Position numbers and translations under genes: made by a program
Shown: piece by piece, positions 21,591 to 45,540 of the stretch
How the letters are laid out: each line of letters opens with the position of its first letter
Numbering within the stretch: position 1 is the stretch's first letter
The notes under the pieces: generated by a model
Databases searched by the model: none
Told to the model about the DNA's origin: nothing
What the model saw: only the letters and a program-made list of their open reading frames with translations
Assembly: GCF_018977255.1 (NCBI RefSeq)
Contig: NW_024704742.1
Coordinates: 104,286,001-104,350,000 of the forward strand
Direction of reading: 5' to 3'
DNA length: 64,000 nucleotides
DNA from: Callorhinchus milii
Taxonomy: Eukaryota

Positions 21591-22185
21591 CAGATGGCTG
21601 GCTAGATTCCGACATCACGTTGCGAGGCATGTTACCTTGGAGCAAGTTCAACTCCAAGGGCATCCCGCTTTCCCAAACCCCAAGGAGGATCCATCTGCAA
21701 AATTAGTGTGTAATCTGTGAAATCTACACAATCTACTGAATAGAAAAGAACCTGATATTTTGAATTTTTTAAAGAAAATACTGAGAACTACTGTGGGCAT
21801 TTGCCCACAAAACACACAGTCACTACACTTTACAGTCTATCCAGTCTACGGTATAATGCCTTTCATTTCCTCATGAAATGAAAGGCGTGATACTAAATGT
21901 AAAAATTGGTATAAAGTGCTGGAGAATTATTTTAACAGTTCCTTGGAGTTTTTAATGATTCAATACTACACATCACTCGTAAAAAAAAAAGGCTCCAGTT
22001 TTAGCACCTAGAACCTTACATAAGGAGTCTTGCTCTAACCAGGATATCCCTCAGTGGATTTTGTAAATTTTCAATAGTTTCAGCTGCCTCATGTCTTCAA
22101 GGCCTATGCCTGCAGTTTCCTCATATTTTAGTGTTGTTTTAAAATTCTGGTGTAACCAGTGTTTCTTTTTTATTTCATTGCACAG

Positions 22186-22305
22186 GTCACGCCAGGAGAA
22201 TGAGATGGTGGACTCTGCCCCTCAGTGGGAACAAGTGCTGAGGAGGCAAAAGGAACGGTCACTGGCTGACCCCAACCACAGACGTTCAAAGCATAGATCA
22301 CGATC
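22186..22305 (+). CDS. EPB41L4A: EPB41L4A coding exon
   Basis: gcacag|GTCA...GATC|gtacgt. Translates [40 protein letters not shown]. Confidence 0.94.
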
Positions 22306-22811
22306 GTACGTGTTTTGTCTCCACTCTCCCTCCCTCCCTCGATTCATTTATTTATTGGGAAATCTAGTGGAGGGTCATTGCAAACACTGTCTGGCAAGCA
22401 TCCCACTGCTTGTTCAGCTAGGACCATCCTACCCATTGGGTTGGGGTTAACAGATGCCGAGTGGGAGGAATCATTGACCTAGAGACTGATCTACTCTCCC
22501 AATGCCTGCTGATTAAATCTGTTAATCCAGGCTGCCTGGTCAGTCTACTGGAGATCATGATACAGTATGTCATCATGGCAGAGAAAAATGGATCAGTCAA
22601 AAAGTGGTGAGGTACAACTAAACTTGGGTTTTAAAAGTGTGTAGAATGTATGAGTGAGTGAAGACTGAGGAAAGGAGGACTGTCAACTTCTGCCAAATTG
22701 TGTAGTTTTAGCGCTGCGGATTGATGTCCTCGGTTTAAACTCACCCTCACCCAGGAACTGTGTGGTCACCAACTCATATGTTCCATGAACATAATTTCTG
22801 TTTTTCTGCAG

Positions 22812-32866: not shown

Positions 32867-32995
32867 AAGAAAGACAAATCTGAAGGTAATGCAACAGAAA
32901 GAAAGGCACAAGGATCAAGTGATGACTGGAATGCAAAATATAGCATTAAAACGTCTAGAACCATACAAACCCCACGGATAAAAGCAGAGACTTGA
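32867..32995 (+). CDS. EPB41L4A: EPB41L4A last coding exon, including the stop codon
   Basis: caacag|AAG...ACT TGA. Translates KKDKSEGNATERKAQGSSDDWNAKYSIKTSRTIQTPRIKAET*; recalled human C-terminus is TIQASRLKTET. Confidence 0.9.
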   Translation, partial: KKDKSEGNATERKAQGSSDDWNAKYSIKTSRTIQTPRIKAET

Positions 32996-33622
32996 TTATC
33001 TTTACACCGATGACTGGAAAAGATATTGGCGCACTGTGATCTAAAACTGTTGAGGTTTCTGCACACCACAACAACGATGCCTTGAGCGAAAACTGAGTTT
33101 GAAATTGTTTCTGTGTCAGTGTAACACAGTATGTTTATGGGCAACTTTATAGACTGGTGTCATACAAACCTAAGCTGTGCTGTATGACAAACCTTTTTTT
33201 TAAAATGTTGATTTTCTTTATCAGTGGCTCAATTGCAAATGACCATTAACTAGTAATGAAAATCATATTCATGACACATTATGGGACCAGAAATCTTTTT
33301 TTAATATTTTTTAAAACACAGGTATACCTGATTTTCCTGTATTTCGGTATGTACCAAACTGTCCTTAAAACACAGGTTGCCATGATGTGAACAGATATAG
33401 AGCTTATGAAATTCAGTTTTATACTGGAATGTTTATCTACTGTATTAAAGGCTTTCTACATTAGTGCATCACCATTTTAAAATGATACTCAATTGGGCGC
33501 AATAATTAAAATTTGGTGGGAAAGCTTAACAGTAATCTGGATGTACCTTTTAACAGTGTTACTTGTTTGGTTCCTACCAGAACTCATTCAGATCCTTTAC
33601 TTTCCATCCCTTGTGTAGCATC

Positions 33623-33632
33623 AATAAATAAA
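33623..33632 (+). terminator. Candidate proximal polyadenylation signal of EPB41L4A; a distal AATAAA lies near 34904
   Basis: Overlapping AATAAATAAA about 630 nt after the stop, within an AT-rich stretch with no obvious repeats. Confidence 0.45.
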
Positions 33633-36478
33633 AATGGCATTGTTTGACCTTTAAATTCACCAAAATAGAAGCACCTGTTGAGGTGCACAGCTTTTTAAGT
33701 GTCACCTGTTTGGTGAGGAAAAAAGTGGCTAACTCCAAGAGTGCACTGAGTGTGCATTAAACAGTATCAATCAGGTTGGCCTGACAGTTGTCTAAGGGTT
33801 AGCAAGCACTAACTTCGAATTTAGTAACATTTCCATTTTGCTACATTCATGTGTATTGAAATTGCCAGTTAATACATGTTATTGCATCACCTGTGATCAG
33901 GATTTGTTTCAATTTTTTGAAAGTGTAGAAAGAACTCTTCTGTAAATCATTTGCGTTGTGAATGCTACTGAAACATTGCATGAAACTGTAAAATACATTT
34001 GCTGAAGTTTCTTGGACTGTTGGTAAGTGAATGTAATAATAATGGGGTCTATCTGCCACTCTCAGCAGGAATTACTCAGGTTCTGTTAGTCTTTCTTATG
34101 GGTTGTAAGGCTTGAATTTTAATATTGAACTTAATTGCTGTTTGAAAATCAAGCTTTTTAATGTTGATAATAATTTCTGCTAGTAATACAGGTGAGTATG
34201 TATTTGGCCCAAAGCATTAAGTTAAATGGTTATTGGGGGAGAAGGTGAATCATCTCAGATTGCAGTTACGTGATAAAACTCATGCTCTGACGATAGTTAA
34301 TTGTCACACAGGGAGGTGTTATTTTATGTTACCTGCTGAGTTAACTACAGGCTGTCGAATGGCCTTCACAACAATCTGGTTTCTGTAAAATGTGATGTGG
34401 AAAAGCAGTAGGTGGTGATGACTGCTGACCTAAATCAGATTTACAAAATTCACAAATGTAGCAAACCCTGTAACCTCACAGAATGAGGTGACACAAGGCA
34501 GCAGTCACCAGACCAGGAGGATTGAAAGTTCATCACCCACCCGACTCAGATAGGCCCCATTTAAGACCAAGTACAATGTGTTTATTTTCACCTTGCAAGG
34601 TGTTGGGGGAGATGTTATCATCAGTGTTTGTATTTTCTGTGCAAAGCAGGTCTCAGCTGTGATCAGTTTTGTTTGCCAATCCCATTTTTGATTGTGTAGG
34701 GTGTATGTTTAATTGTATTTCAGCAACTCAAGAACAGTTTGTAATTTTCTAGAAATGTTAACATCAAAAGGGGAACAACCACATGCACAGTGTGAAATGC
34801 TAGGTTAGCAGAACTTTCAGGGAATTAAATTAAAACTATTGCTGTAATATTGTGCATCTTGGTGTACATTGTACCCACAACTTGGTCATAGTAGAATGAG
34901 GAAAATAAATCCAGAATTTATATTAAACAAGGTTCTAGATGGGTTTTTCCTAATAATTCAGGTACAATTATGAATTACACACTTAAAGCACCAACACACT
35001 GAGTCATTCTCTAATCTGCTTTCTAATCTGATTTTTTGGGGGAAATGCATGCCAACAAATTCTATGGGCACATTATTTAATTACAATGGAAACCTCACTT
35101 TCCCAGACACCCTGGAAGATCAAGTGATCGATTTGTAGAAACAATACAAATACAGTTTCTTCATAATCTTTATTGTGAAGTTAAATGCTGGTAATTTTTT
35201 TTACCAAATGAAATTGTACAGAAAAGCATGTACAACTGCAAGTACAAACAATTAAATTAGGCAAAATAAAAGTTTTACCCCATGACTTGTAATGAAGACA
35301 TATGAAACAAGCAGCAAATAAGAAGCAATATGAAAGGAAGCCAAATGGTGGATTAAAATATACATCAAAGTCCCAAGGTTTCACAGGTTCCCATCCCAAT
35401 TACTAGGTACTCAACTCAAAGACAAACAGCCAACTGGTCCTTATGTCCTGGAAATGTCCACGTCCCCCAGTGCGATTTCAAGATGAATCTTCCTGCATAA
35501 GATTAAAAAAAGGTGTTAATTCACATATAGCCATAAGGTACAGCACATATCCACAATATTCAGGACCAGAAGTATTTCAGATGTAATTTTTCTAGATATA
35601 CGCAAGCTGGATATTACCTTTAGTTTACTAAATTAAGCAGTTTCTCACAGCTAGCCAACAATTGGACATTACAATATCATAAATGTTGTCAGCAGTCAGG
35701 CAGGGCGGGTACCATTGTTCCTGCAATGATTTTCAGGTACTCGATTATTTCAGGGTTGATATATCTTTCCTGGAGTGATCCAAAGTGAGGTTGTAGATGG
35801 ACATACATGGTCCTCTTCAAGGCTGTGAATGTCAAAATAGATCAAGATTAGTTACTGACAGCAGGAGGGCAAGTGGGGAGGATAGCCCAGTAACAGCTTG
35901 GTCAGGTAGGATAATTAAGAATTTCAGAAATCAGCAACTGCACAGTCATTGGGATGTGGAATGCCTTGCCAAGTAAGATGATACAGGCAGAGTCCATTGT
36001 GGGTTAAAGAGGGAAGTAGACAGTTTATGATAGTTGGTGGGTGAAGGGTATGGAATTAGGGCAGAGGGATTGATTGCTCCAAGAGCTGGTGTAAACTCGA
36101 TTAGTCGAAAGGCCTCCTTCTGCGCTTTAAGTTTCAATGATTCTAACTAAGCTGAGACAAAAGATGTAAAACTGAGAATACTAGTTTATCACTGAAGATT
36201 TGGCTATATGTGTGCACATCCTGTATGACTTTCTGATGCCACATCTTCAAAACTGAACCCAAAGCCCAACATACTCTAAAGGGAAATTTAAGTAAATGAG
36301 AAACAAGTTTATAACACCAAGCTAAGCACATCAGGAGAATTATATTGAATAAGATTTCTATTTCTAATTAGTTGCCCGGATGAATGTACAGTATAGCAGT
36401 TTTCACATAGGATAACATCTTTATAGAGATGGAGTGAAAACTGGAGGGGGAATGAGACAGAGGGATTCAAGGAGAGGT

Positions 36479-36803
36479 AATAATAATAATAATAATCCTT
36501 GCATTTGATATAGCGCTTTTCACGTCAGGAGGACGTCCCAAAGCGCTTCACAGAATAGACTGTAAAGTGAATTGACTGTATATTTGTGGGCGAACGCGGC
36601 AGCCAATTGCGCACAGCAATGTCCCACAAACAGTCGTAGATTGAAAATGACCAATTTATTATTGTTTTTGTTTTTTTGGAGGGATTATTATTAGGAGTGT
36701 GGAGTAAGGAAACTTGCCCAAGGTTTCGCCCTCTGCCTGGAATTGAACTCAGGTCTCTCACTTGCAAAGCGAGTGCTCTAACCACTGAGCTCCAGGACTC
36801 CAC
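36479..36803 (-). mobile_element. Full-length tRNA(Ala)-like SINE inside the lncRNA intron
   Basis: A box AGCTCAGTGG, TGC anticodon loop, B box GTTCAATTCC, L2-like 3' hairpin, (TTA)n tail. Confidence 0.9.
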
Positions 36804-38663
36804 AAAGGTAAGAGTGGAAGGACGTGGAAGCAGGAACAAGGAACACGCAGCAGACCATTTGCATTTACCAGACTGCAGAGTTTTAACTGACCAAGACACA
36901 TGGAATGTTTAATTTACTCTGGAAATGATTACCAACCAGACTTTTCACATTACTGAATCATAAAGTTACAACAACTGAAGTTGTAATTGGACTTTGGCAC
37001 TACACCCAATCTGAACATTCCAGTGGTGCGTTTCAAAACCCACTGGGTATCACAAGGTTCATTTAAACAGTTTTTTTTAAATCAATGTCTCTTCTGCATC
37101 TGGCAACACTCAAGTACTGGGAACAAGAGTGAAAAATACAATGCAAAAGATTTCCTTTCTGCCTTTTTTGACACTTCAATAATTCAATAAAATGAAGAAT
37201 GAGCAACACAAAGGCAAGTTAAAAAGTGTCATGAACTTAGTCCCACTCCACAAAGAGGAATCACACTTTCTAACAAGAAGTTAGTACAATTGGGTATTCA
37301 AGAAATCAGTAAATGATTACTGTACTGCTGGTGCAACATAAACACAGTGGTCTTTCCCTATTAATACTGCCGTGACTGACATTCAACAGCTCGTCGACAA
37401 AAGGCAATGTGGCAAACCGTTCATCACAACCCCAGCCAGATGGACAGATCACATACTTGTATTTTCTCTAATAAGTTTTGAATTTGTAAGGCTTCAAATC
37501 TCTAGATAATTTATTAACTGAGACTAACAGCGTTTCAAGGCTGCAGCTGCATGAAACATCTTAAGTAATTCAGTTTCAGAAACTGATAGGATGAGTGACC
37601 AGTGCTTTGCCATTTAAAAAGATCAATATCTTTACCTCCTTCTCTCCCAATCTCAATTAACAGTTCAATCATGAAACTTGTACAGAATACAATATTGCAA
37701 CTCTGATTTATACAATGCCCTTTACACAGGATAGCATCTGTACAGTGGTGGGGTTGGAAGCCGAGCAAGGGAGAAGGTGACCAATAGACACCGCCAAGGA
37801 GGCAAGTCTAAGGATGGGAGGAGGGAGAACCTGCAGACAATTTGAGCAGGAAGATTTCCATGTCTAGCCAGCACACATATATGGAACTCAATCTGGTTTG
37901 GATATGCTTAAGCATGCTGATGCGTGTCTACAGGTGTCAGTTACCCTGCTGATCATAAAATACTGTAACCATTTGCATCTATATAGCACTCTCCATGTAG
38001 GGTAACATCTCAAAGAGTGTTTAGAAGCACTTAGATAGAGCAAGTTTCCTCTGCTCTGCTCTATCTTAAAAGCAGCTGGGTGGGAAAGATGGGGATCAAG
38101 GAAGCAGGCGAGGTAGGTTTCATTTTGGTTATGAGTGGCAATGGATAAGAGAAAAATAGGGGCAAAGGTGTGCAGGATTGAGGCAGTGGCAGGCAGGCAG
38201 CTGAATACAATTGTGAATAAACATTAAAAGTCAAACAATGACCCCCACCTATCCCAGATATGCATTTTAGTAATAATCCCTCCCAATATCAAAATCCAAT
38301 TCTGAAAACCTCAACTGATCTTTCGCAAGGTACCTAAAAGTGCAATCAAAGCACAAAAATGGGGGAAATCTGGATCAAGGTTGTAAATCTAGAATACAGG
38401 CTAGTTAAGTTGTAACTTAATATAAAATCCATCATTAAAAAACACGTACCTGGAATTCTACAGACGTCAATCGCTGGGAGCTGCATGTATGTACAACATC
38501 CGTTACAAAAAAGGTCAACGAATAATCATCTTTGAATAGTTGTTACCCATCACGAGAAAGATGACTTGGAGACCCAACTGCAGATAGATGGAATATTTCC
38601 ATATTAATTCCTTTTATTACAACTGATCTTCTCCTGCAACATGGTCAAACCCCTACTATTTAG

Positions 38664-38794
38664 TGATGTGCAGCACACAATATGCTAAGGAGGGAAGGTG
38701 CACCTCTCCCAGCAGACAATCACATGCCAGTTACTGTCCGCTCTTTTTGACGCCGCGTCCGCCTGAGAACTGACAAACGGGCAACACAAGAGCG
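38664..38794 (-). ncRNA. SNORA13: Box H/ACA snoRNA, SNORA13 (ACA13) orthologue; guide for the 18S rRNA pseudouridine at human position 1248
   Basis: 5' hairpin GCTCTT-GTGTT...GTCAAA-AAGAGC; the pocket arms complement 18S UUUGAC-UC-AACAC. H box ACAGTA (38732-38737) lies 14 nt from the pocket. A second hairpin and an ACA box 3 nt from the end follow; length about 131 nt; about 86 nt upstream of a 3' splice site. Confidence 0.88.
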
Positions 38795-38879
38795 ATCAAC
38801 GCGAGAAATCATGTGCAATACACCGCCTGTACTGAACACCCGTGCTCAGCGATACACCACCTGTACCAGGCCCATGTAT

Positions 38880-39306
38880 TCAGCGATACCTCCCTATCCC
38901 TCAGAGAATCGAGTACAAAACCTTGTTCTCACCTTCAAAGCCCTCCACGGTCTTGCTTCCTGCTACCTCTCCGACCTCCTAACCCCATATCAGCCTATCT
39001 GCTCCATCCGCTCGGTGGACACCGGTCTGCTTCAGGTCCCCCGCGCTTCCCGCCCCAACATTGGTGGTCGGGCATTCAGCATCTCTGCCCCTGCACTCTG
39101 GATTTGTATCCCGAATCCCTCCGCCTCTCTTGCCCCTTCAAGTCCCGTCTAAAGACCTTCCTCTTCAACCACGCCTTTGCCCACCGCTCACCCGTGCCGT
39201 CCAGCCCTCCTGACCCCAACTCCCAACCAAAAACCCCCGACTATCCAGCGTCCTGGGCCGCGCCTCCAACGTGAAGGGCGCCGTCTACACGCGTAACGTA
39301 TTGTTG
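38880..39306 (+). mobile_element. L2 LINE 3' fragment lying between the two snoRNA/exon units
   Basis: LTFKALHGLASCYLSDLL...GGRAFSISAPALW motif. Confidence 0.85.
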
Positions 39307-39499
39307 CTCCCGCACCATCCGTGTGCCGGGCCCAACTGCACAGCAACAACAGAAAATCCACCGGAGAGAGAGAGAGAGAGGGGGGGGGGGGGGGAAATCA
39401 TACCGTGAATGGCTCCAGAAGTCAATCATTGGGAACTGCACTTATGTGCGTGTAACCATCTTTGGATGAACAGTCACCCACCACCAGAGACGTGGCCTG

Positions 39500-40350
39500 G
39501 GAGACCGACCTGCAGACAGGCGGAACGATTGGGTGCATTAATTCCTTTGATTGCACCTGATCCTCGGCCCCCACACGGCCGAGGCCCGACTGTCGTGTGA
39601 TGTGCCGCACACACCCCGGGCCGAGGAGGGAAGGTGCAGCCCCTCCCGCCGGGCCATCGCCTGCCGTCCGTCCACACACCGTCCACACTGAGAACTGGCA
39701 AACCGCCCCCCACACGAGAGCGCTCCGCGCGAGGAAGCGACGTGCAATACACGTGGCAATAAATGCACCGCGTGGACCGGGCCCACCCCGAGCCGCAGTA
39801 ACCCTCCTCCCCGCGGGCCGCACTCACACCCCCCCCCCATCCTTCCCCCTCACAGTCACAACTGGTAGTGTGAGAGTCACGGGTGTAAATGACTGTCGTG
39901 TTATTGAGAAATGACCGTTTAAAGCGCCTCAAACACCTCATTCGAAGACTCCCATCTCGGCCTCGGGAACCGCGCGCCGAGAACGACCGTTGACGGGACC
40001 GGAAGAAGGAGCGGGCGGGGGCGGGGCAGGTCACACGTCAGATGATTGACATCCCGGCGGCCGCTGTCCCGCCTCCCAACCAATCAGCTACAGCGCGGGG
40101 TGAGGCGGCGGCGGGGTCGTGCGGGGCTCGGGACACAGCGCTTCCGGGTCAGTAACGGCCGCAGGCGCGGGTCCCCCGCGGGGTGGGTGGCGGTCGGTCG
40201 GTCGCGGTGTTTAGTTTGTTCTCGGGGTTTAAGTGCTGACTTCAAACGTGTGTGTTTATTGCTACGAGTGTAGAAATGACGCGAATACAATCGCAAACTC
40301 GGAAGTGACGCTGTTGATGTGACGCGAGTGTGACCCGAGCGGCCGGAGAT
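39500..40350. promoter_or_regulatory. CpG-island housekeeping-type promoter
   Basis: High GC and CpG density against an AT-rich background. ETS sites CCGGAAG (about 39999) and CTTCCGG (40141), GC boxes 40012-40026, CCAAT about 40080, ETS-CRE composite CGGAAGTGACG about 40300. Confidence 0.85.
39598..39722 (-). pseudogene. Degenerate SNORA13 paralogue
   Basis: Aligns to 38664-38794 (GCTCT.GTGT, GTTTG.CAGTTCTCAG, TGCACCTTCCCTCCT, TGTGTGC.GCACATCAC). The ACA box is kept, but the GTCAAA guide arm and the H box are lost (ACAGTA became ACGGCA). Confidence 0.75.
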
Positions 40351-40901
40351 CACAACAGGGCATCGAATACCAGCCTAAAAGTAGCCCAATATGGTGTGTC
40401 ACCTCCTCTCCTGTGGGCAGCACAGCGGCCGATCTGGGTTGAGTTTGTCAGTGCTTCTGAAACCGTAAGGACTTCAAAGAGAGAGGGGAAAAAAACACAA
40501 GTTTTGCTGTTTTAAATTTTTAAAAAAATTAAAAATTAGGTACCCGCCCAAAGCCATGTTTTCCCGCCCAGTAACAGCACCAACACAACAACACATTGCG
40601 TAAATGGGTGTCTAATAATTAATCTTTTAATTAATTGCATTCGTGCAATTTGGGAGGACGTCCCGAGGTGCCAGACAGTGAAGCGATTGCACCAACCACG
40701 TGTTTATATATAGCACTCTTCACGCCAGACAGGGTCTCGGAGCGCTTCCAAGTTGGGGTTGGGAGTCAAAAGGGGGTGAACCCGCCCAACCCGGCAACGT
40801 TGTGGAGTCTCGTTGATTAGGGCACTCGCCTCGCACGCGAAAGTATCTGGGTTCAATTCCCAGGCAGGGTGAAAAGTTAGGCAAGTTTCCTTACTCCACT
40901 C

Positions 40902-42455
40902 ACAACAACAACAACAAAATTACATTTGTAAAGCGCCTCTCACGTTGGGAGGACGTCCAAGGCAACGGACAGACAGTTAAGGACCCGAGCTGAGGGTCGG
41001 GGAGGGCAGGGGTGGAAGAAGGGAGATCGAAAGCACGGTCGAAAAGGAGGGCCTTGAGGTGGGTCTTGAAGGTGGTGAGGGAGGGGGTGAGACAGAGAGA
41101 CTGCGGGATGGAGTTCCAAAGGGTGGAGGCAGAGTGGCGGAAGGCTCGCCCACCGATAGTGGGGCGAGCAAGGCGGGGGATGTGAAGCAGGCCGTATCCT
41201 GCTGAACGGAGGAAGCGAACAGGATGGTAGGGGGTTAGGAGATCGGAGAGGTAAGGGGAGCAAGACCGTGGAGGGCTTTGAAGGTGAGGACCAGGATCTC
41301 GAACTGTATCCTCTGTGTGATGGGAAACCAGTGGAGTTGGGCAAGAATGGGGGTGATAGGGTCGCAAGGCCTAGTGCGGGAGAGGACATGGGCTGCAGAG
41401 TACTGGGTGGAGTCCTGTAGCTCAGTGGTTAGAGCACTCGCTTTGCAAGTGAGAGACCTGAGTTCAATTCCAGGCAGAGGGCGAAACCTTGGGCAAGTTT
41501 CCTTACTCCACACGCCTCATAATAATCCCTCCAAAAAAACAAAACAATAATAAATTGGTCATTTTCAATCTACGACTGTTTGTGGGACATTGCTGTGCGC
41601 AATTGGCTGCCGCGTTTGCCCACAAATATGCAGTCAATTCACTTTACGGTATATTCTGTGAAGCGCTTTGGGACGTCTAGAAGACGTGAAAAGCGCTAAA
41701 TCAAAGGCAAGGATTATTATTATTATGATCTGCAGCCTGTGGAGGGAGGAGTTGGGGAGGCCGACAAGCAAGGAGTTTGCGTAGTCAAGCCTTGATGATA
41801 ATGAAGGCGTGTATGAGGGTTTTGGTGGCCTGCGGTGTGAGATAGTGGTGGAGCCGGGTGAAGTTCCAGAGGTGGGGAAAGGCAGAGTGGGTCATGGCGC
41901 AGATGTGGGGTAGAAAGGAAAGTTGAGGGTCAAAAAGACCCCAAGGTTCCGGACTGGCTTAGTAAGGTGGAGTGTGCACCATGGATGGTGATGCTGTCAG
42001 CGCCTGAGGTGTGGAGGCCCTGATGGGAGCCAATCAGGAGAGCCTCGGTCTTGTTGATGTTGAACTGAAGAAAGTTAGTTCTCATCCAGGACTTGATGTC
42101 TGACAGACATTGTGTCAGGACAGCAGTGGTCCTGGAGTCCAGGGTGGAGGCAGAGAGGTACAGTTGGGTGTCATCCGCATACATGTGGAAGTTGATCCCA
42201 TGTCTGTGGATGATGTCACCAAGAAGGAGCATATAGATGTTGAAGAGGAGGGGACCAAGGACAGAGCCCTGAGGAACGCAGCATGAGATGGTCCGGAGAC
42301 TAGAGGAGAAGCCGTTTGAGGAGATGGAAGTGCAGGCGGTGTGAGAGGTACGATCTGAACCAATCAAGGACAGCGCCGTGGAGGTTGAGGTGAGAGGAGA
42401 GGCGGTGGATGAGGATAGAGTGGTCGACAGTGTTGAAAGCAGCAGAGAGGTCAAG
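40902..42455 (-). mobile_element. L2 LINE RT-containing fragment, interrupted by a SINE (copy 1)
   Basis: VPQGSVLGPLLFNIYM and YADDTQLY reverse-transcriptase motifs; frameshifted. Confidence 0.93.
41407..41726 (+). mobile_element. Full-length tRNA(Ala)-like SINE nested in the L2 (copy 1)
   Basis: GTGGAGTCCTGTAGCTCAGTGGTTAGAGCACTCGCTTTGCAAGTGAG head; (TTA)n tail. Confidence 0.92.
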
Positions 42456-43296
42456 GAAGGCACACCTCTGTTTAACTCGCAGTAAGCAGGAATCCAGTTG
42501 TTAGTCACTTTTCTGGGGGTTATAATCCCTTAAAAAAATAATAATGTGGTCACTCAATCCACAACTGTTTGTGGGACACAGCTATGTGCAATTGGCTGCT
42601 GCGTTTTGCCCACAAAGTATACACTTTACAGTATATTCTGTGAAGCGCTTTGAGATGTCTCATGCTTTCAGCTTTAATCCAAAAATTTTAACTTTCAGCT
42701 AATCCAAAACTCCGCTGCCCCATGCTCACTCGCACGAAACTCACACTGGCATCGGCATCGAATACCAGCCTAAAAGTAGCCCAATATGGTGCGTCACCTC
42801 CTCTCCTGTGGGCAGCACAGCGGCCGATCTGGGTTGAGTTTGTCAGTGCTTCTGAAACCGTAAGGACTTCAAAGAGAGAGGGGAAAAAAAACAAGTTTTG
42901 CTGTTTTAAATTTTTTTAAAAATTAAAAATTAGGTACCCGCCCAAAGCCATGTTTTCCCGCCCAGTAACAGCACCAACACAACAACACATTGCGTAAATG
43001 GGTGTCTAATAATTAATCTTTTAATTAATTGCATTCGTGCAATTTGGGAGGACGTCCCGAGGTGCCAGACAGTGAAGCGATTGCACCAACCACGTGTTTA
43101 TATATAGCACTCTTCACGCCAGACAGGGTCTCGGAGCGCTTCCAAGTTGGGGTTGGGAGTCAAAAGGGGGTGAACCCGCCCAACCCGGCAACGTTGTGGA
43201 GTCTCGTTGATTAGGGCACTCGCCTCGCACGCGAAAGTATCTGGGTTCAATTCCCAGGCAGGGTGAAAAGTTAGGCAAGGTTTCCTTACTCCACTC

Positions 43297-44851
43297 ACAA
43301 CAACAACAACAAAATTACATTTGTAAAGCGCCTCTCACGTTGGGAGGACGTCCCAAGGCAACGGACAGACAGTTAAGGACCCGAGCTGAGGGTCGGGGAG
43401 GGCAGGGGTGGAAGAAGGGAGATCGAAAGCACGGTCGAAAAGGAGGGCCTTGAGGTGGGTCTTGAAGGTGGTGAGGGAGGGGGTGAGACAGAGAGACTGC
43501 GGGATGGAGTTCCAAAGGGTGGAGGCAGAGTGGCGGAAGGCTCGCCCACCGATAGTGGGGCGAGCAAGGCGGGGGATGTGAAGCAGGCCGTATCCTGCTG
43601 AACGGAGGAAGCGAACAGGATGGTAGGGGGTTAGGAGATCGGAGAGGTAAGGGGAGCAAGACCGTGGAGGGCTTTGAAGGTGAGGACCAGGATCTCGAAC
43701 TGTATCCTCTGTGTGATGGGAAACCAGTGGAGTTGGGCAAGAATGGGGGTGATAGGGTCGCAAGGCCTAGTGCGGGAGAGGACATGGGCTGCAGAGTACT
43801 GGGTGGAGTCCTGTAGCTCAGTGGTTAGAGCACTCGCTTTGCAAGTGAGAGACCTGAGTTCAATTCCAGGCAGAGGGCGAAACCTTGGGCAAGTTTCCTT
43901 ACTCCACACGCCTCATAATAATCCCTCCAAAAAAACAAAACAATAATAAATTGGTCATTTTCAATCTACGACTGTTTGTGGGACATTGCTGTGCGCAATT
44001 GGCTGCCGCGTTTGCCCACAAATATGCAGTCAATTCACTTTACGGTATATTCTGTGAAGCGCTTTGGGACGTCTAGAAGACGTGAAAAGCGCTAAATCAA
44101 AGGCAAGGATTATTATTATTATGATCTGCAGCCTGTGGAGGGAGGAGTTGGGGAGGCCGACAAGCAAGGAGTTTGCGTAGTCAAGCCTTGATGATAATGA
44201 AGGCGTGTATGAGGGTTTTGGTGGCCTGCGGTGTGAGATAGTGGTGGAGCCGGGTGAAGTTCCAGAGGTGGGGAAAGGCAGAGTGGGTCATGGCGCAGAT
44301 GTGGGGTAGAAAGGAAAGTTGAGGGTCAAAAAGACCCCAAGGTTCCGGACTGGCTTAGTAAGGTGGAGTGTGCACCATGGATGGTGATGCTGTCAGCGCC
44401 TGAGGTGTGGAGGCCCTGATGGGAGCCAATCAGGAGAGCCTCGGTCTTGTTGATGTTGAACTGAAGAAAGTTAGTTCTCATCCAGGACTTGATGTCTGAC
44501 AGACATTGTGTCAGGACAGCAGTGGTCCTGGAGTCCAGGGTGGAGGCAGAGAGGTACAGTTGGGTGTCATCCGCATACATGTGGAAGTTGATCCCATGTC
44601 TGTGGATGATGTCACCAAGAAGGAGCATATAGATGTTGAAGAGGAGGGGACCAAGGACAGAGCCCTGAGGAACGCAGCATGAGATGGTCCGGAGACTAGA
44701 GGAGAAGCCGTTTGAGGAGATGGAAGTGCAGGCGGTGTGAGAGGTACGATCTGAACCAATCAAGGACAGCGCCGTGGAGGTTGAGGTGAGAGGAGAGGCG
44801 GTGGATGAGGATAGAGTGGTCGACAGTGTTGAAAGCAGCAGAGAGGTCAAG
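43297..44851 (-). mobile_element. L2 LINE RT-containing fragment (duplicate copy 2), with the nested SINE at 43803-44122 (+)
   Basis: Near-identical to 40902-42455. Confidence 0.93.
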
Positions 44852-45089
44852 GAAGGCACACCTCTGTTTAACTCGCAGTAAGCAGGAATCCAGTTGTTAG
44901 TCACTTTTCTGGGGGTTATAATCCCTTAAAAAAATAATAATGTGGTCACTCAATCCACAACTGTTTGTGGGACACAGCTATGTGCAATTGGCTGCTGCGT
45001 TTTGCCCACAAAGTATACACTTTACAGTATATTCTGTGAAGCGCTTTGAGATGTCTCATGCTTTCAGCTTTAATCCAAAATTTTAACTT

Positions 45090-45540
45090 TCAGCTAATCC
45101 AAAACTCCGCTGCCCCATGCTCACTCGCACGAAACTCACACCAGTTCAAGCCAGGCTCCACTGGCTCCCTATCACCGAATGGATCAATTTCAAGATCCTG
45201 GCTTGTTTTCAAATCTCATCATGCCCTGGCACTTCCCTCTTTGACCTGCTTATCCTCCTACCCACTCCCTCCGTTCGACTGGCTCCAGCCTTCTGCATTT
45301 CCCTCCTGCCTTCTGTTCCACCATCGGTTGCCACGTTTTCAGCCACTACGCCCTGAAACACTGGAACACTCTTCCTCTATCCCTCCTTGCCGACTCCTTC
45401 CCCATCTACAGGTTTTGCCTGAAGACCTTCCTCTTCGACCATGCCTACGTTCATCTCCCCCTTCCCTCATGCTCTGCCACTGTCAAACGTTCTAGGATGC
45501 TAACCTGCATGAAGGGCGCTATATAATTGCAAGTTGTTGA
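45090..45540 (+). mobile_element. L2 LINE 3' fragment, different subfamily
   Basis: QLIQNSAA...LHWLPITEWINFKIL motif; tail GCGCTATATAATTGCAAGTTGTTG. Confidence 0.8.

What the first reader, a model, noticed from the sequence alone, without database searches (positions are those of the whole stretch)
35150..40011. SNORA13 host lncRNA tail-to-tail with EPB41L4A: an EPB41L4A-AS1 equivalent in a probable cartilaginous fish
Seen: a CpG-island promoter, a TOP-like pyrimidine start, several GT-AG exons without a long ORF, an intact intronic H/ACA RNA and a poly(A) signal converging on the EPB41L4A 3' end. Known: human EPB41L4A-AS1 hosts SNORA13 at the 3' end of EPB41L4A, and snoRNA host genes often have 5'TOP starts. 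Inference: this arrangement dates to the jawed-vertebrate ancestor. The ORF track cannot show this gene, and it may be unannotated.
Basis: partly seen in the sequence, partly recalled or inferred. Interest (0 to 1): 0.7.

Follow-up and report, generated by a model that had tools for sequence, protein, structure and literature searches.

The report
Chimaera SNORA13 host gene, three copies
In a chimaera (cartilaginous fish), a spliced non-coding gene sits tail-to-tail with EPB41L4A as in humans and carries two intact and one decayed copy of the small RNA that guides a key ribosomal RNA modification; it is a known kind of gene, here probably as old as jawed vertebrates.

Summary
Real, and richer than reported. 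A five-exon minus-strand gene (about 40011-35150) starts in the window's only CpG island and converges on the EPB41L4A 3' end; those exons match Callorhinchus milii protein. Two GT-AG joints stand in 3 of 3 RNA-like runs and 0 of 1 DNA-like run; the two 5' joints were not listed and rest on contig-length arithmetic. The longest spliced ORF is 56 aa, as chance gives. Both intact pockets pair best with the 18S helix-31 uridine (human U1248). Best reading: positional orthologue of EPB41L4A-AS1, a snoRNA host gene. The TOP start, poly(A) sites and continuity of the arrangement in other fishes are not shown; no CTCF consensus was found in the island. The scan's index held no earlier SNORA13 finding. 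New member of a known kind; moderate interest.

The parts
38501..41250 (.). CpG island covering promoter, exons 1-2 and intron 1
   Evidence: CpG o/e 0.72-1.07 in 500-base windows
40012..40147 (-). TATA-less promoter motifs: GC boxes at 40024/40018, CRE-like 40040, CCAAT 40084, ETS-like 40147
   Evidence: consensus scan with recalled motifs; not evidence of function
40001..40011 (-). TOP-like tract, C plus 10 pyrimidines; candidate start site
   Evidence: sequence; 159 of 2000 shuffles give one; start not shown by reads
39828..40011 (-). exon 1 (both ends predicted)
   Evidence: GTGAGT donor at 39827; about 54 nt in X8 record 28 by length arithmetic
39598..39722 (-). copy 1: decayed SNORA13 paralogue in intron 1; ACA box kept (39603), pocket arms and H box lost
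   Evidence: aligns to copy 2, score 88 vs 18.5+-3.0, 0 of 300 shuffles; 13-nt loss; fold z +0.43; no Rfam hit; DNA-like run X11 spans it without a gap
39404..39509 (-). exon 2 (106 nt), paralogue of exon 3
   Evidence: GT-AG ends; 73 of 103 columns identical to exon 3; length arithmetic in X4 and X8
38890..39225 (.). interspersed repeat inserted in intron 2
   Evidence: up to 7 matches elsewhere in the window
38664..38794 (-). copy 2: intact SNORA13-like H/ACA RNA in intron 2; pocket arms 38787 and 38751, H box 38737, ACA 38669
   Evidence: Rfam SNORA13 45.7 bits, E 1.6e-5, below gathering 53; fold z -2.78; pocket test; coordinates; a 138-nt contig of X2 lies on 38667-38781 (weak)
38450..38577 (-). 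exon 3 (128 nt)
   Evidence: piece 38450-38577 in X2, X4, X8; joint to 35822 in 3 of 3 RNA-like runs
37083..37216 (-). copy 3: SNORA13 in intron 3; pocket arms 37209 and 37172, H box 37158, ACA 37088
   Evidence: Rfam 62.5 bits
36478..36808 (.). tRNA-derived SINE in intron 3
35618..35822 (-). exon 4 (205 nt)
   Evidence: both joints in 3 of 3 RNA-like runs
35150..35492 (-). exon 5, terminal; 3' end predicted
   Evidence: joint 35618/35492; AATAAA 35174-35169 with U/GU-rich sequence behind it
32867..34930 (+). EPB41L4A last exon: coding to stop 32993-32995, 3' UTR probably to AATAAA 34904 (end predicted; alternative signal 33623)
   Evidence: tblastn; joint 32587/32867 GT..AG in 3 of 3 RNA-like runs

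Best explanation
This is a non-coding snoRNA host gene, the positional orthologue of human EPB41L4A-AS1. Shown: a spliced minus-strand RNA, no long ORF, two intact H/ACA guides in introns 2 and 3 whose 5' pockets fit the 18S helix-31 uridine, convergence on EPB41L4A. Inferred from the known pathway: Pol II starts in the CpG island, the excised introns are trimmed to H/ACA snoRNPs that pseudouridylate the equivalent of human 18S U1248, the first step to m1acp3-pseudouridine (then EMG1, TSR3); the spliced exons carry only short upstream frames and are a predicted nonsense-mediated-decay substrate, so the main conserved product is the snoRNA. History (inferred): an older duplication gave copies 2 and 3; a younger duplication of an [snoRNA + intron end + exon] unit gave exons 2/3 and copies 1/2; copy 1, inside the GC-rich island, then lost its pocket and H box. 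Host gene and EPB41L4A were already tail-to-tail in the jawed-vertebrate ancestor.
For: Joints with minus-strand GT-AG ends in 3 of 3 RNA-like runs, 0 of 1 DNA-like run. Rfam hits. For both intact copies the best-pairing uridine in 6 of 6 rRNA loci scanned is the helix-31 site, 8-9 + 6 pairs, score 29-33 against 12-20 for the next best; pocket 14 nt from the H box (3 of 3 loci checked are SSU_rRNA_eukarya; the loci were fetched by that motif, so only the ranking is a test). Basal stem: 3 of 7 pairs change on both sides between copies, none broken (four rows only). Unit duplication: blastn 68% over 313 nt, E 8e-21. Longest frame 56 aa; 13 of 14 AUG frames starting before the last junction stop 50 nt or more upstream of it. 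Human parallels: about 300 nt gap to EPB41L4A against about 220-230 nt predicted here; human SNORA13 lies in a 394-nt intron 1, 70 nt from the next exon, host non-coding and NMD-susceptible; here copies 1 and 2 lie 88 and 86 nt from the next exon. Chicken ACA13 is hosted by an EST, not a named protein gene.
Against: The two 5' joints were not printed. Run type is a guess and contigs give no strand, start or level. X2 record 10 runs unbroken from the EPB41L4A last exon into exon 5, so the 3' ends may overlap or read through in some RNA. Copy 2 is under Rfam's gathering score. Orthology rests on position and cargo only: no exon similarity to L007 (last exon 187 of 300 shuffles as good; exon 4 8 of 300), no EPB41L4A exon in L007 (0 hits from 120 proteins), no second flanking gene found in 40501-64000. 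Frog SNORA13 copies lie on X. tropicalis chr2 at 4.31 Mb, whereas snoRNAs that I recall as human chromosome 5 (SNORA47, SNORD72) are on chr1 in that table, which may mean the cluster moved in frogs. The 18S used is not from this animal.
Confidence: 0.85

Rival explanations
1. The host RNA or its transcription has a role of its own (cis support of EPB41L4A transcription or a chromatin boundary, as reported in human cells), and that, not the snoRNA alone, keeps it next to EPB41L4A. Compatible with the best explanation; it adds a function.
For: Human knock-down lowers EPB41L4A transcription and the locus is a strong TAD boundary (PMC12975130, abstract and discussion part 1). Orientation and a gap of 200-300 nt look kept over the chimaera-human split. 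snoRNAs often change hosts (PMC13736004 passages), so staying put is not automatic.
Against: No match to a recalled CTCF consensus in the island: 0 of 6 window matches lie in 38500-41250. Exons show no similarity to the other vertebrate locus. Gene order can persist without selection in a slowly evolving genome. All functional data are from human cancer lines.
Confidence: 0.2
2. Convergence: SNORA13 reached the EPB41L4A flank independently in chimaera and amniotes, or the host transcript arose twice around a conserved island.
For: No exon homology found; host associations of snoRNAs are unstable across vertebrates; frog and L007 give no confirmation.
Against: Same snoRNA, same neighbour, same orientation and similar gap; two independent arrivals at one spot in a gigabase genome are very unlikely (inference).
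Confidence: 0.06
3. The exons encode a microprotein (a TIGA1-like product; 49-aa frame from exon 1 or 56-aa frame over exons 3-4).
For: Such frames exist; human AS1 has a reported peptide.
Against: Lengths equal the shuffle median; a 5-codon AUG frame in good context precedes them; no Pfam family at cut-off for 6 of 6 frames; no homologue for the 43-aa exon-4 part (near lengths only); the paralogous exons 2 and 3 differ by a 25-nt indel; most human isoforms skip the TIGA1 AUG.
Confidence: 0.04
4. No separate gene: the signal is EPB41L4A read-through, DNA in the libraries or an assembly artefact.
For: X2 record 10 bridges both genes; run type is a guess; a 2390-bp 99.7% tandem duplication begins 350 bp upstream.
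Against: Joints have minus-strand GT-AG ends, opposite to EPB41L4A, are absent from the DNA-like run, and recur in three studies; units 1 and 2 are only about 70% alike, not an assembly echo.
Confidence: 0.02

Closest known systems
Human EPB41L4A-AS1 (TIGA1/GRAS1 locus), host of SNORA13 (PMC12975130; PMC13627766)
   Same: Spliced non-coding host of SNORA13, convergent on the EPB41L4A 3' end with a gap of a few hundred bases; snoRNA 70-90 nt from the next exon; NMD-type ORF layout.
   Different: Five exons over 4.9 kb against three over about 2 kb; three SNORA13-derived copies against one; the intron-1 copy is the dead one; no long first-exon AUG frame in the modelled transcript; no CTCF consensus seen; exon homology not testable.
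SNORA13 / ACA13 (Rfam RF00396; yeast snR35; insect snopsi18S-1377 RF00543)
   Same: Two hairpins, H and ACA boxes, the same 5' pocket arms pairing around the 18S helix-31 uridine.
   Different: 3' hairpins diverge freely; copy 2 scores under the gathering threshold; the RPL23-binding role reported for human SNORA13 was not testable.
Xenopus tropicalis SNORA13a-d cluster (PMC6984369 supplement)
   Same: Several same-strand SNORA13 copies within 4 kb and no other listed snoRNA family among them.
   Different: Four copies listed as guides; host and neighbour gene not given; no decayed copy described.
Syntenic non-coding snoRNA hosts such as DANCR (PMC12694859) and GAS5 (PMC2653536)
   Same: Position and intronic snoRNA cargo conserved across vertebrates while exon sequence is not; growth by intragenic (cis) duplication.
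   Different: Different snoRNA and neighbours; documented in zebrafish or chicken, whereas this case reaches a cartilaginous fish.

Membership tests
SNORA13 (RF00396), copy 3 | Rfam score at or above gathering | tested here: met
   62.5 vs 53 bits
SNORA13 (RF00396), copy 2 | Rfam score at or above gathering | tested here: not met
   45.7 vs 53 bits, E 1.6e-5, full-length model match; filed as SNORA13-like paralogue that works like SNORA13
H/ACA guide for 18S U1248, copies 2 and 3 | hairpin-H box (ANANNA)-hairpin-ACA three bases from the 3' end | tested here: met
H/ACA guide for 18S U1248, copies 2 and 3 | bipartite pocket pairing around the target U, 14-15 nt from the box | tested here: met
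   best site in 6 of 6 rRNA loci, 14 nt; 18S from other eukaryotes
H/ACA guide for 18S U1248, copies 2 and 3 | accumulates as a discrete dyskerin-bound RNA and modifies 18S | not testable with these tools
   only contigs; one 138-nt contig on copy 2 in one run
H/ACA guide, copy 1 | H box and pocket arms | tested here: not met
   both arms and the H box absent; fold z +0.43; treated as pseudogene
non-coding snoRNA host genes (SNHG) | spliced transcript with snoRNA wholly inside an intron | tested here: met
   joint 35822/38450 removes the intron holding copy 3 in 3 of 3 RNA-like runs; intron 2 indirect
non-coding snoRNA host genes (SNHG) | no substantial ORF in the spliced RNA | tested here: met
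   56 aa at most
non-coding snoRNA host genes (SNHG) | 5'TOP start (common, recalled; not universal) | tested here: inconclusive
   tract present, 8% by chance, start unmapped
non-coding snoRNA host genes (SNHG) | NMD sensitivity, broad expression | not testable with these tools
   predicted from stop positions; seen in three studies
EPB41L4A-AS1 orthologue | convergent on the EPB41L4A 3' end | tested here: met
   human layout
EPB41L4A-AS1 orthologue | hosts SNORA13 | tested here: met
EPB41L4A-AS1 orthologue | second flanking gene (NREP/STARD4 side; human order recalled) | tested here: inconclusive
   no such family in 93 + strand frames of 175 non-repeat frames in 40501-64000; may lie beyond the window or in short exons
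EPB41L4A-AS1 orthologue | unbroken presence in intermediate lineages | not testable with these tools
   no vertebrate genomes held; L007 uninformative
EPB41L4A-AS1 orthologue | exon sequence homology to the human RNA | not testable with these tools
   human sequence not available from a tool

The most novel reading that the evidence does not exclude
The host gene has been held tail-to-tail with EPB41L4A, at a gap of 200-300 nt, since the jawed-vertebrate ancestor because its transcription has the cis or boundary role reported in human cells, while its exons and snoRNA copy number turn over freely (birth and death of whole snoRNA-intron-exon units, with GC-biased decay of the copy caught in the island). 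The chimaera's two divergent live copies, alike in the pocket but not in the 3' hairpin, would then be natural variants for separating pseudouridine guiding from the RPL23/senescence role of SNORA13.
Probability: 0.2. Interest if true: 0.6.

Novelty: new member of a known kind. Interest (0 to 1): 0.36.

Why it matters
EPB41L4A-AS1 and SNORA13 are under active study (cis regulation, nucleolar biology, senescence), and the papers I could read describe conservation without going beyond mammals, chicken or frog. A chimaera counterpart with the same neighbour and orientation puts the locus near the root of jawed vertebrates and shows what is kept (position, pocket, boxes) and what is not (exons, copy number, 3' hairpin). 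It also gives a clear three-stage example of snoRNA cis-duplication and decay, with one live copy that a Rfam cut-off misses. It does not change what snoRNA host genes are known to do.

Tried and rejected
No whole genome is held, so other SNORA13 copies in this species were not searched. The look-up of sequencing runs: no RNA holder listed on record; ten runs are guessed RNA. No contig of the three RNA-like runs covers 39525-39825 (intron 1 with copy 1), and none of X4 or X8 covers either intact snoRNA; a part without cover proves nothing. X4 and X8 cover stops at 34773 and 34902 and resumes at 35283 and 35279 while X11 goes on: a weak hint of two 3' ends, contradicted by X2 record 10. Contig depths were not used to rank expression. 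Metagenome scan for the pocket pattern: 1 of 16 loci is SNORA13 (L007), the other 15 gave no SNORA13 match; L007 has a similar-looking exon layout by eye but no EPB41L4A exon and no shared sequence outside the snoRNA. Copy 3 flanks share nothing with unit 2 (138 and 264 of 300 shuffles as good), so its origin by the same unit duplication is not shown. A C-box/D-box pair at 37427/37309 in intron 3 was rejected as a C/D snoRNA: no terminal stem, longest rRNA complement 9 nt against 9-15 in 60 random segments (3 of 40 loci dropped as not rRNA; mostly 18S, so 28S targets poorly covered). Weak Rfam matches (SNORA43 at 33655, SNORA21 at 36940, E 0.1-9) taken as chance. CTCF consensus: none in the island. 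The zebrafish synteny table of PMC12694859 gave no EPB41L4A hit, but also none for GAS5, SNHG1 or SNHG8, so that blank is uninformative. No EPB41L4A hit in supplements of PMC5577775 or ACA13 in those of PMC2653536; the supplement of PMC13389317 could not be read and may list orthologues. Cheng et al. 2024 (Cell) is not held. PMC10188112 held nothing relevant. Earlier scan findings: none on this locus or SNORA13.


Full report
Setting. An exon at 22184-22306 is 100% identical to Callorhinchus milii EPB41L4A and 90-98% to sharks and rays. tblastn places the C-terminal half of the protein on the + strand in 12 exons from 294 to a stop at 32993-32995, matching P0002 at 96-100% over exon-length hits. 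No whole genome is held.

The observation. The only clear CpG island of the window spans about 38500-41250. On the minus strand five exons can be drawn (40011-39828, 39509-39404, 38577-38450, 35822-35618, 35492-35150), all introns GT-AG. I laid 4 of the 14 listed runs (three guessed RNA, one DNA-like; four studies; contigs only). Joints 35618/35492 and 38450/35822 stand in 3 of 3 RNA-like runs and 0 of 1 DNA-like run, with ends that are GT-AG on the minus strand; the EPB41L4A joint 32587/32867 serves as a + strand control. The two 5' joints are not among the 15 printed of 482. They are supported by arithmetic only: X8 record 28 has 160 unlisted letters beyond 38577 and X4 record 21 has 111, and depths in the bins of exon 2 and exon 1 fit 106 and 54-56 letters of those same contigs. 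The spliced model is 966 nt; its longest AUG frame is 56 aa, against a median of 50 in 2000 shuffles; 0 of 6 frames reach a Pfam cut-off and the exon-4 part of the 56-aa frame has no homologue at near lengths. The TOP-like tract is there but 159 of 2000 shuffles give one; the start is unmapped. AATAAA signals at 35174 (-) and 34904 (+) predict a gap of about 220-230 nt between the two genes; reads give only a weak hint, and one X2 contig runs across the gap.

Rfam at gathering finds one SNORA13 (37083-37216, 62.5 bits). Below gathering it finds a second full-length match in intron 2 (38664-38794, 45.7 bits, E 1.6e-5). Aligning intron 1/exon 2 with intron 2/exon 3 shows a duplicated unit (68% over 313 nt, E 8e-21) that holds a third copy at 39598-39722. 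Copies 2 and 3 have both pocket arms, an H box 14 nt from the pocket and an ACA box three bases from the end and fold better than shuffles (z -2.8, -2.7). Between them 3 of 7 basal-stem pairs have changed on both sides and none is broken; over 12 pairs and four rows 0 of 500 shuffles reach the covariation score, a small sample and a structure taken from these sequences. Copy 1 keeps the ACA box but has lost both arms and the H box through a 13-nt loss and substitutions, and folds like its shuffles (z +0.43). A DNA-like run that differs from the window at several sites spans copy 1 without a gap, so the loss is not an assembly slip. Unit 1 has G/C where unit 2 has A/T at 66 columns and the reverse at 12 (p 3.5e-10); at the pocket, copy 3, L007 and the Rfam consensus side with copy 2, so copy 1 is the derived one there. 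GC-biased change inside the island, or CpG loss outside it, are both possible (inference).

Target. With 18S loci fetched by a recalled helix-31 motif (40 loci; 3 of 3 checked are SSU_rRNA_eukarya), I ranked every uridine for pairing with the two arms in 6 of the 40. For both intact copies and for L007 the best site in 6 of 6 is the helix-31 uridine, score 29-33 against 12-20 for the runner-up. Human SNORA13 guides this position, 18S U1248, the first step to m1acp3-pseudouridine (PMC12975130 section 6), and the site is conserved across eukaryotes (bioRxiv 10.1101/840132 passages). The animal's own 18S was not available.

Mechanism. Shown: splicing of exons 3-5, lack of coding frame, guide anatomy and fit. 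Inferred from the known H/ACA pathway: transcription from the island, release and trimming of intronic snoRNPs, pseudouridylation followed by EMG1 and TSR3. Inferred from stop positions: 13 of 14 AUG frames that begin before the last junction end 50 nt or more upstream of it, so the spliced RNA should be an NMD substrate, as the human host is annotated. I put 0.85 on this reading. A cis or boundary role, as in human cells, is not excluded, but no CTCF consensus lies in the island (0 of 6 window matches).

Orthology and age. Same cargo, neighbour, orientation and similar gap in chimaera and human make inheritance from the jawed-vertebrate ancestor the simplest reading. It is a two-point inference. 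Chicken has one ACA13 in intron 2 of an EST; X. tropicalis has four copies in 4 kb on chr2, host not named, possibly outside the block that matches human chromosome 5 (human positions recalled). The one vertebrate locus I could fetch (L007, 85 bits; 1 of 16 loci) gave 0 tblastn hits with 120 EPB41L4A proteins in 5.2 kb downstream and no exon similarity. No second flanking gene was found in 93 of 175 non-repeat frames scanned.

Literature seen. PMC12975130: abstract, sections 6 and 17 part 1, passages; 'zebrafish', 'shark' and 'vertebrate' do not occur in its main text. PMC12694859: passages and two supplement searches. 10.1101/840132, PMC12976135, PMC13736004, PMC3349704, PMC3466250, 10.1101/031385, PMC10188112, PMC13627766: passages. 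PMC6984369: passage, supplement rows and part 11. PMC10234308: one supplement row, one file not searched. PMC2653536: passages and supplement search. PMC5577775: supplement search. PMC13389317: listing only, supplement unreadable. Searches listed no paper describing this locus in a cartilaginous fish; the library lacks subscription papers, among them Cheng et al. 2024 (known to me through) and, from recall, the 2015 seventeen-species lncRNA comparison that included elephant shark and may have catalogued it. Database annotation could not be checked; copy 3 would be caught by any Rfam pipeline, copy 2 probably not (inference).

Verdict. A real, spliced, non-coding SNORA13 host gene, very probably the EPB41L4A-AS1 orthologue, with two live guides and one pseudogene. 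Deeply syntenic snoRNA hosts and cis-duplication of snoRNAs are known, so this is a new member of a known kind. Interest 0.36.

Noticed in passing
window 40359-42746 and 42754-45141: Head-to-tail duplication of 2390 bp at 99.7% identity, starting about 350 bp upstream of the predicted start site and made largely of repeats; recent tandem duplication or assembly artefact.
   Followed up: no
window 37177-37363: One X2 contig covers intron sequence and the first 40 nt of copy 3, has four other letters, 28 loose letters and an unusually high depth figure; possibly a chimeric contig; unexplained.
   Followed up: partly
window 37309-37427 (-): C-box and D-box-like motifs 122 nt apart upstream of copy 3; no terminal stem or rRNA complement above chance.
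   Followed up: yes
protein P0033: A Polypterus gene model fuses EPB41L4A to a START domain, suggesting a STARD4-like gene downstream on the same strand; no START exon was found in this window.
   Followed up: partly
window 25878, 36733, 40806, 41415, 43811, 46071: tRNA-like Rfam hits that are heads of an abundant tRNA-derived SINE; LINE fragments with reverse-transcriptase-like frames at about 41930-42529 and 44326-44925.
   Followed up: no
window 33731 and 32671: A 19-nt deletion in the EPB41L4A 3' UTR in run X2 and a 29-nt insertion in its last intron in run X11: probable polymorphisms.
   Followed up: no
L007:4030-5570 (-): Vertebrate contig in a metagenome collection with SNORA13 (85 bits) followed by two candidate exons, a short last intron and an AATAAA: by eye the same 3' layout as the window's gene, without sequence similarity.
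   Followed up: partly
L017-L056: Most of these contigs in prokaryote genome assemblies are eukaryotic 18S rRNA, i.e. contamination of those assemblies (3 of 3 checked by Rfam).
   Followed up: no
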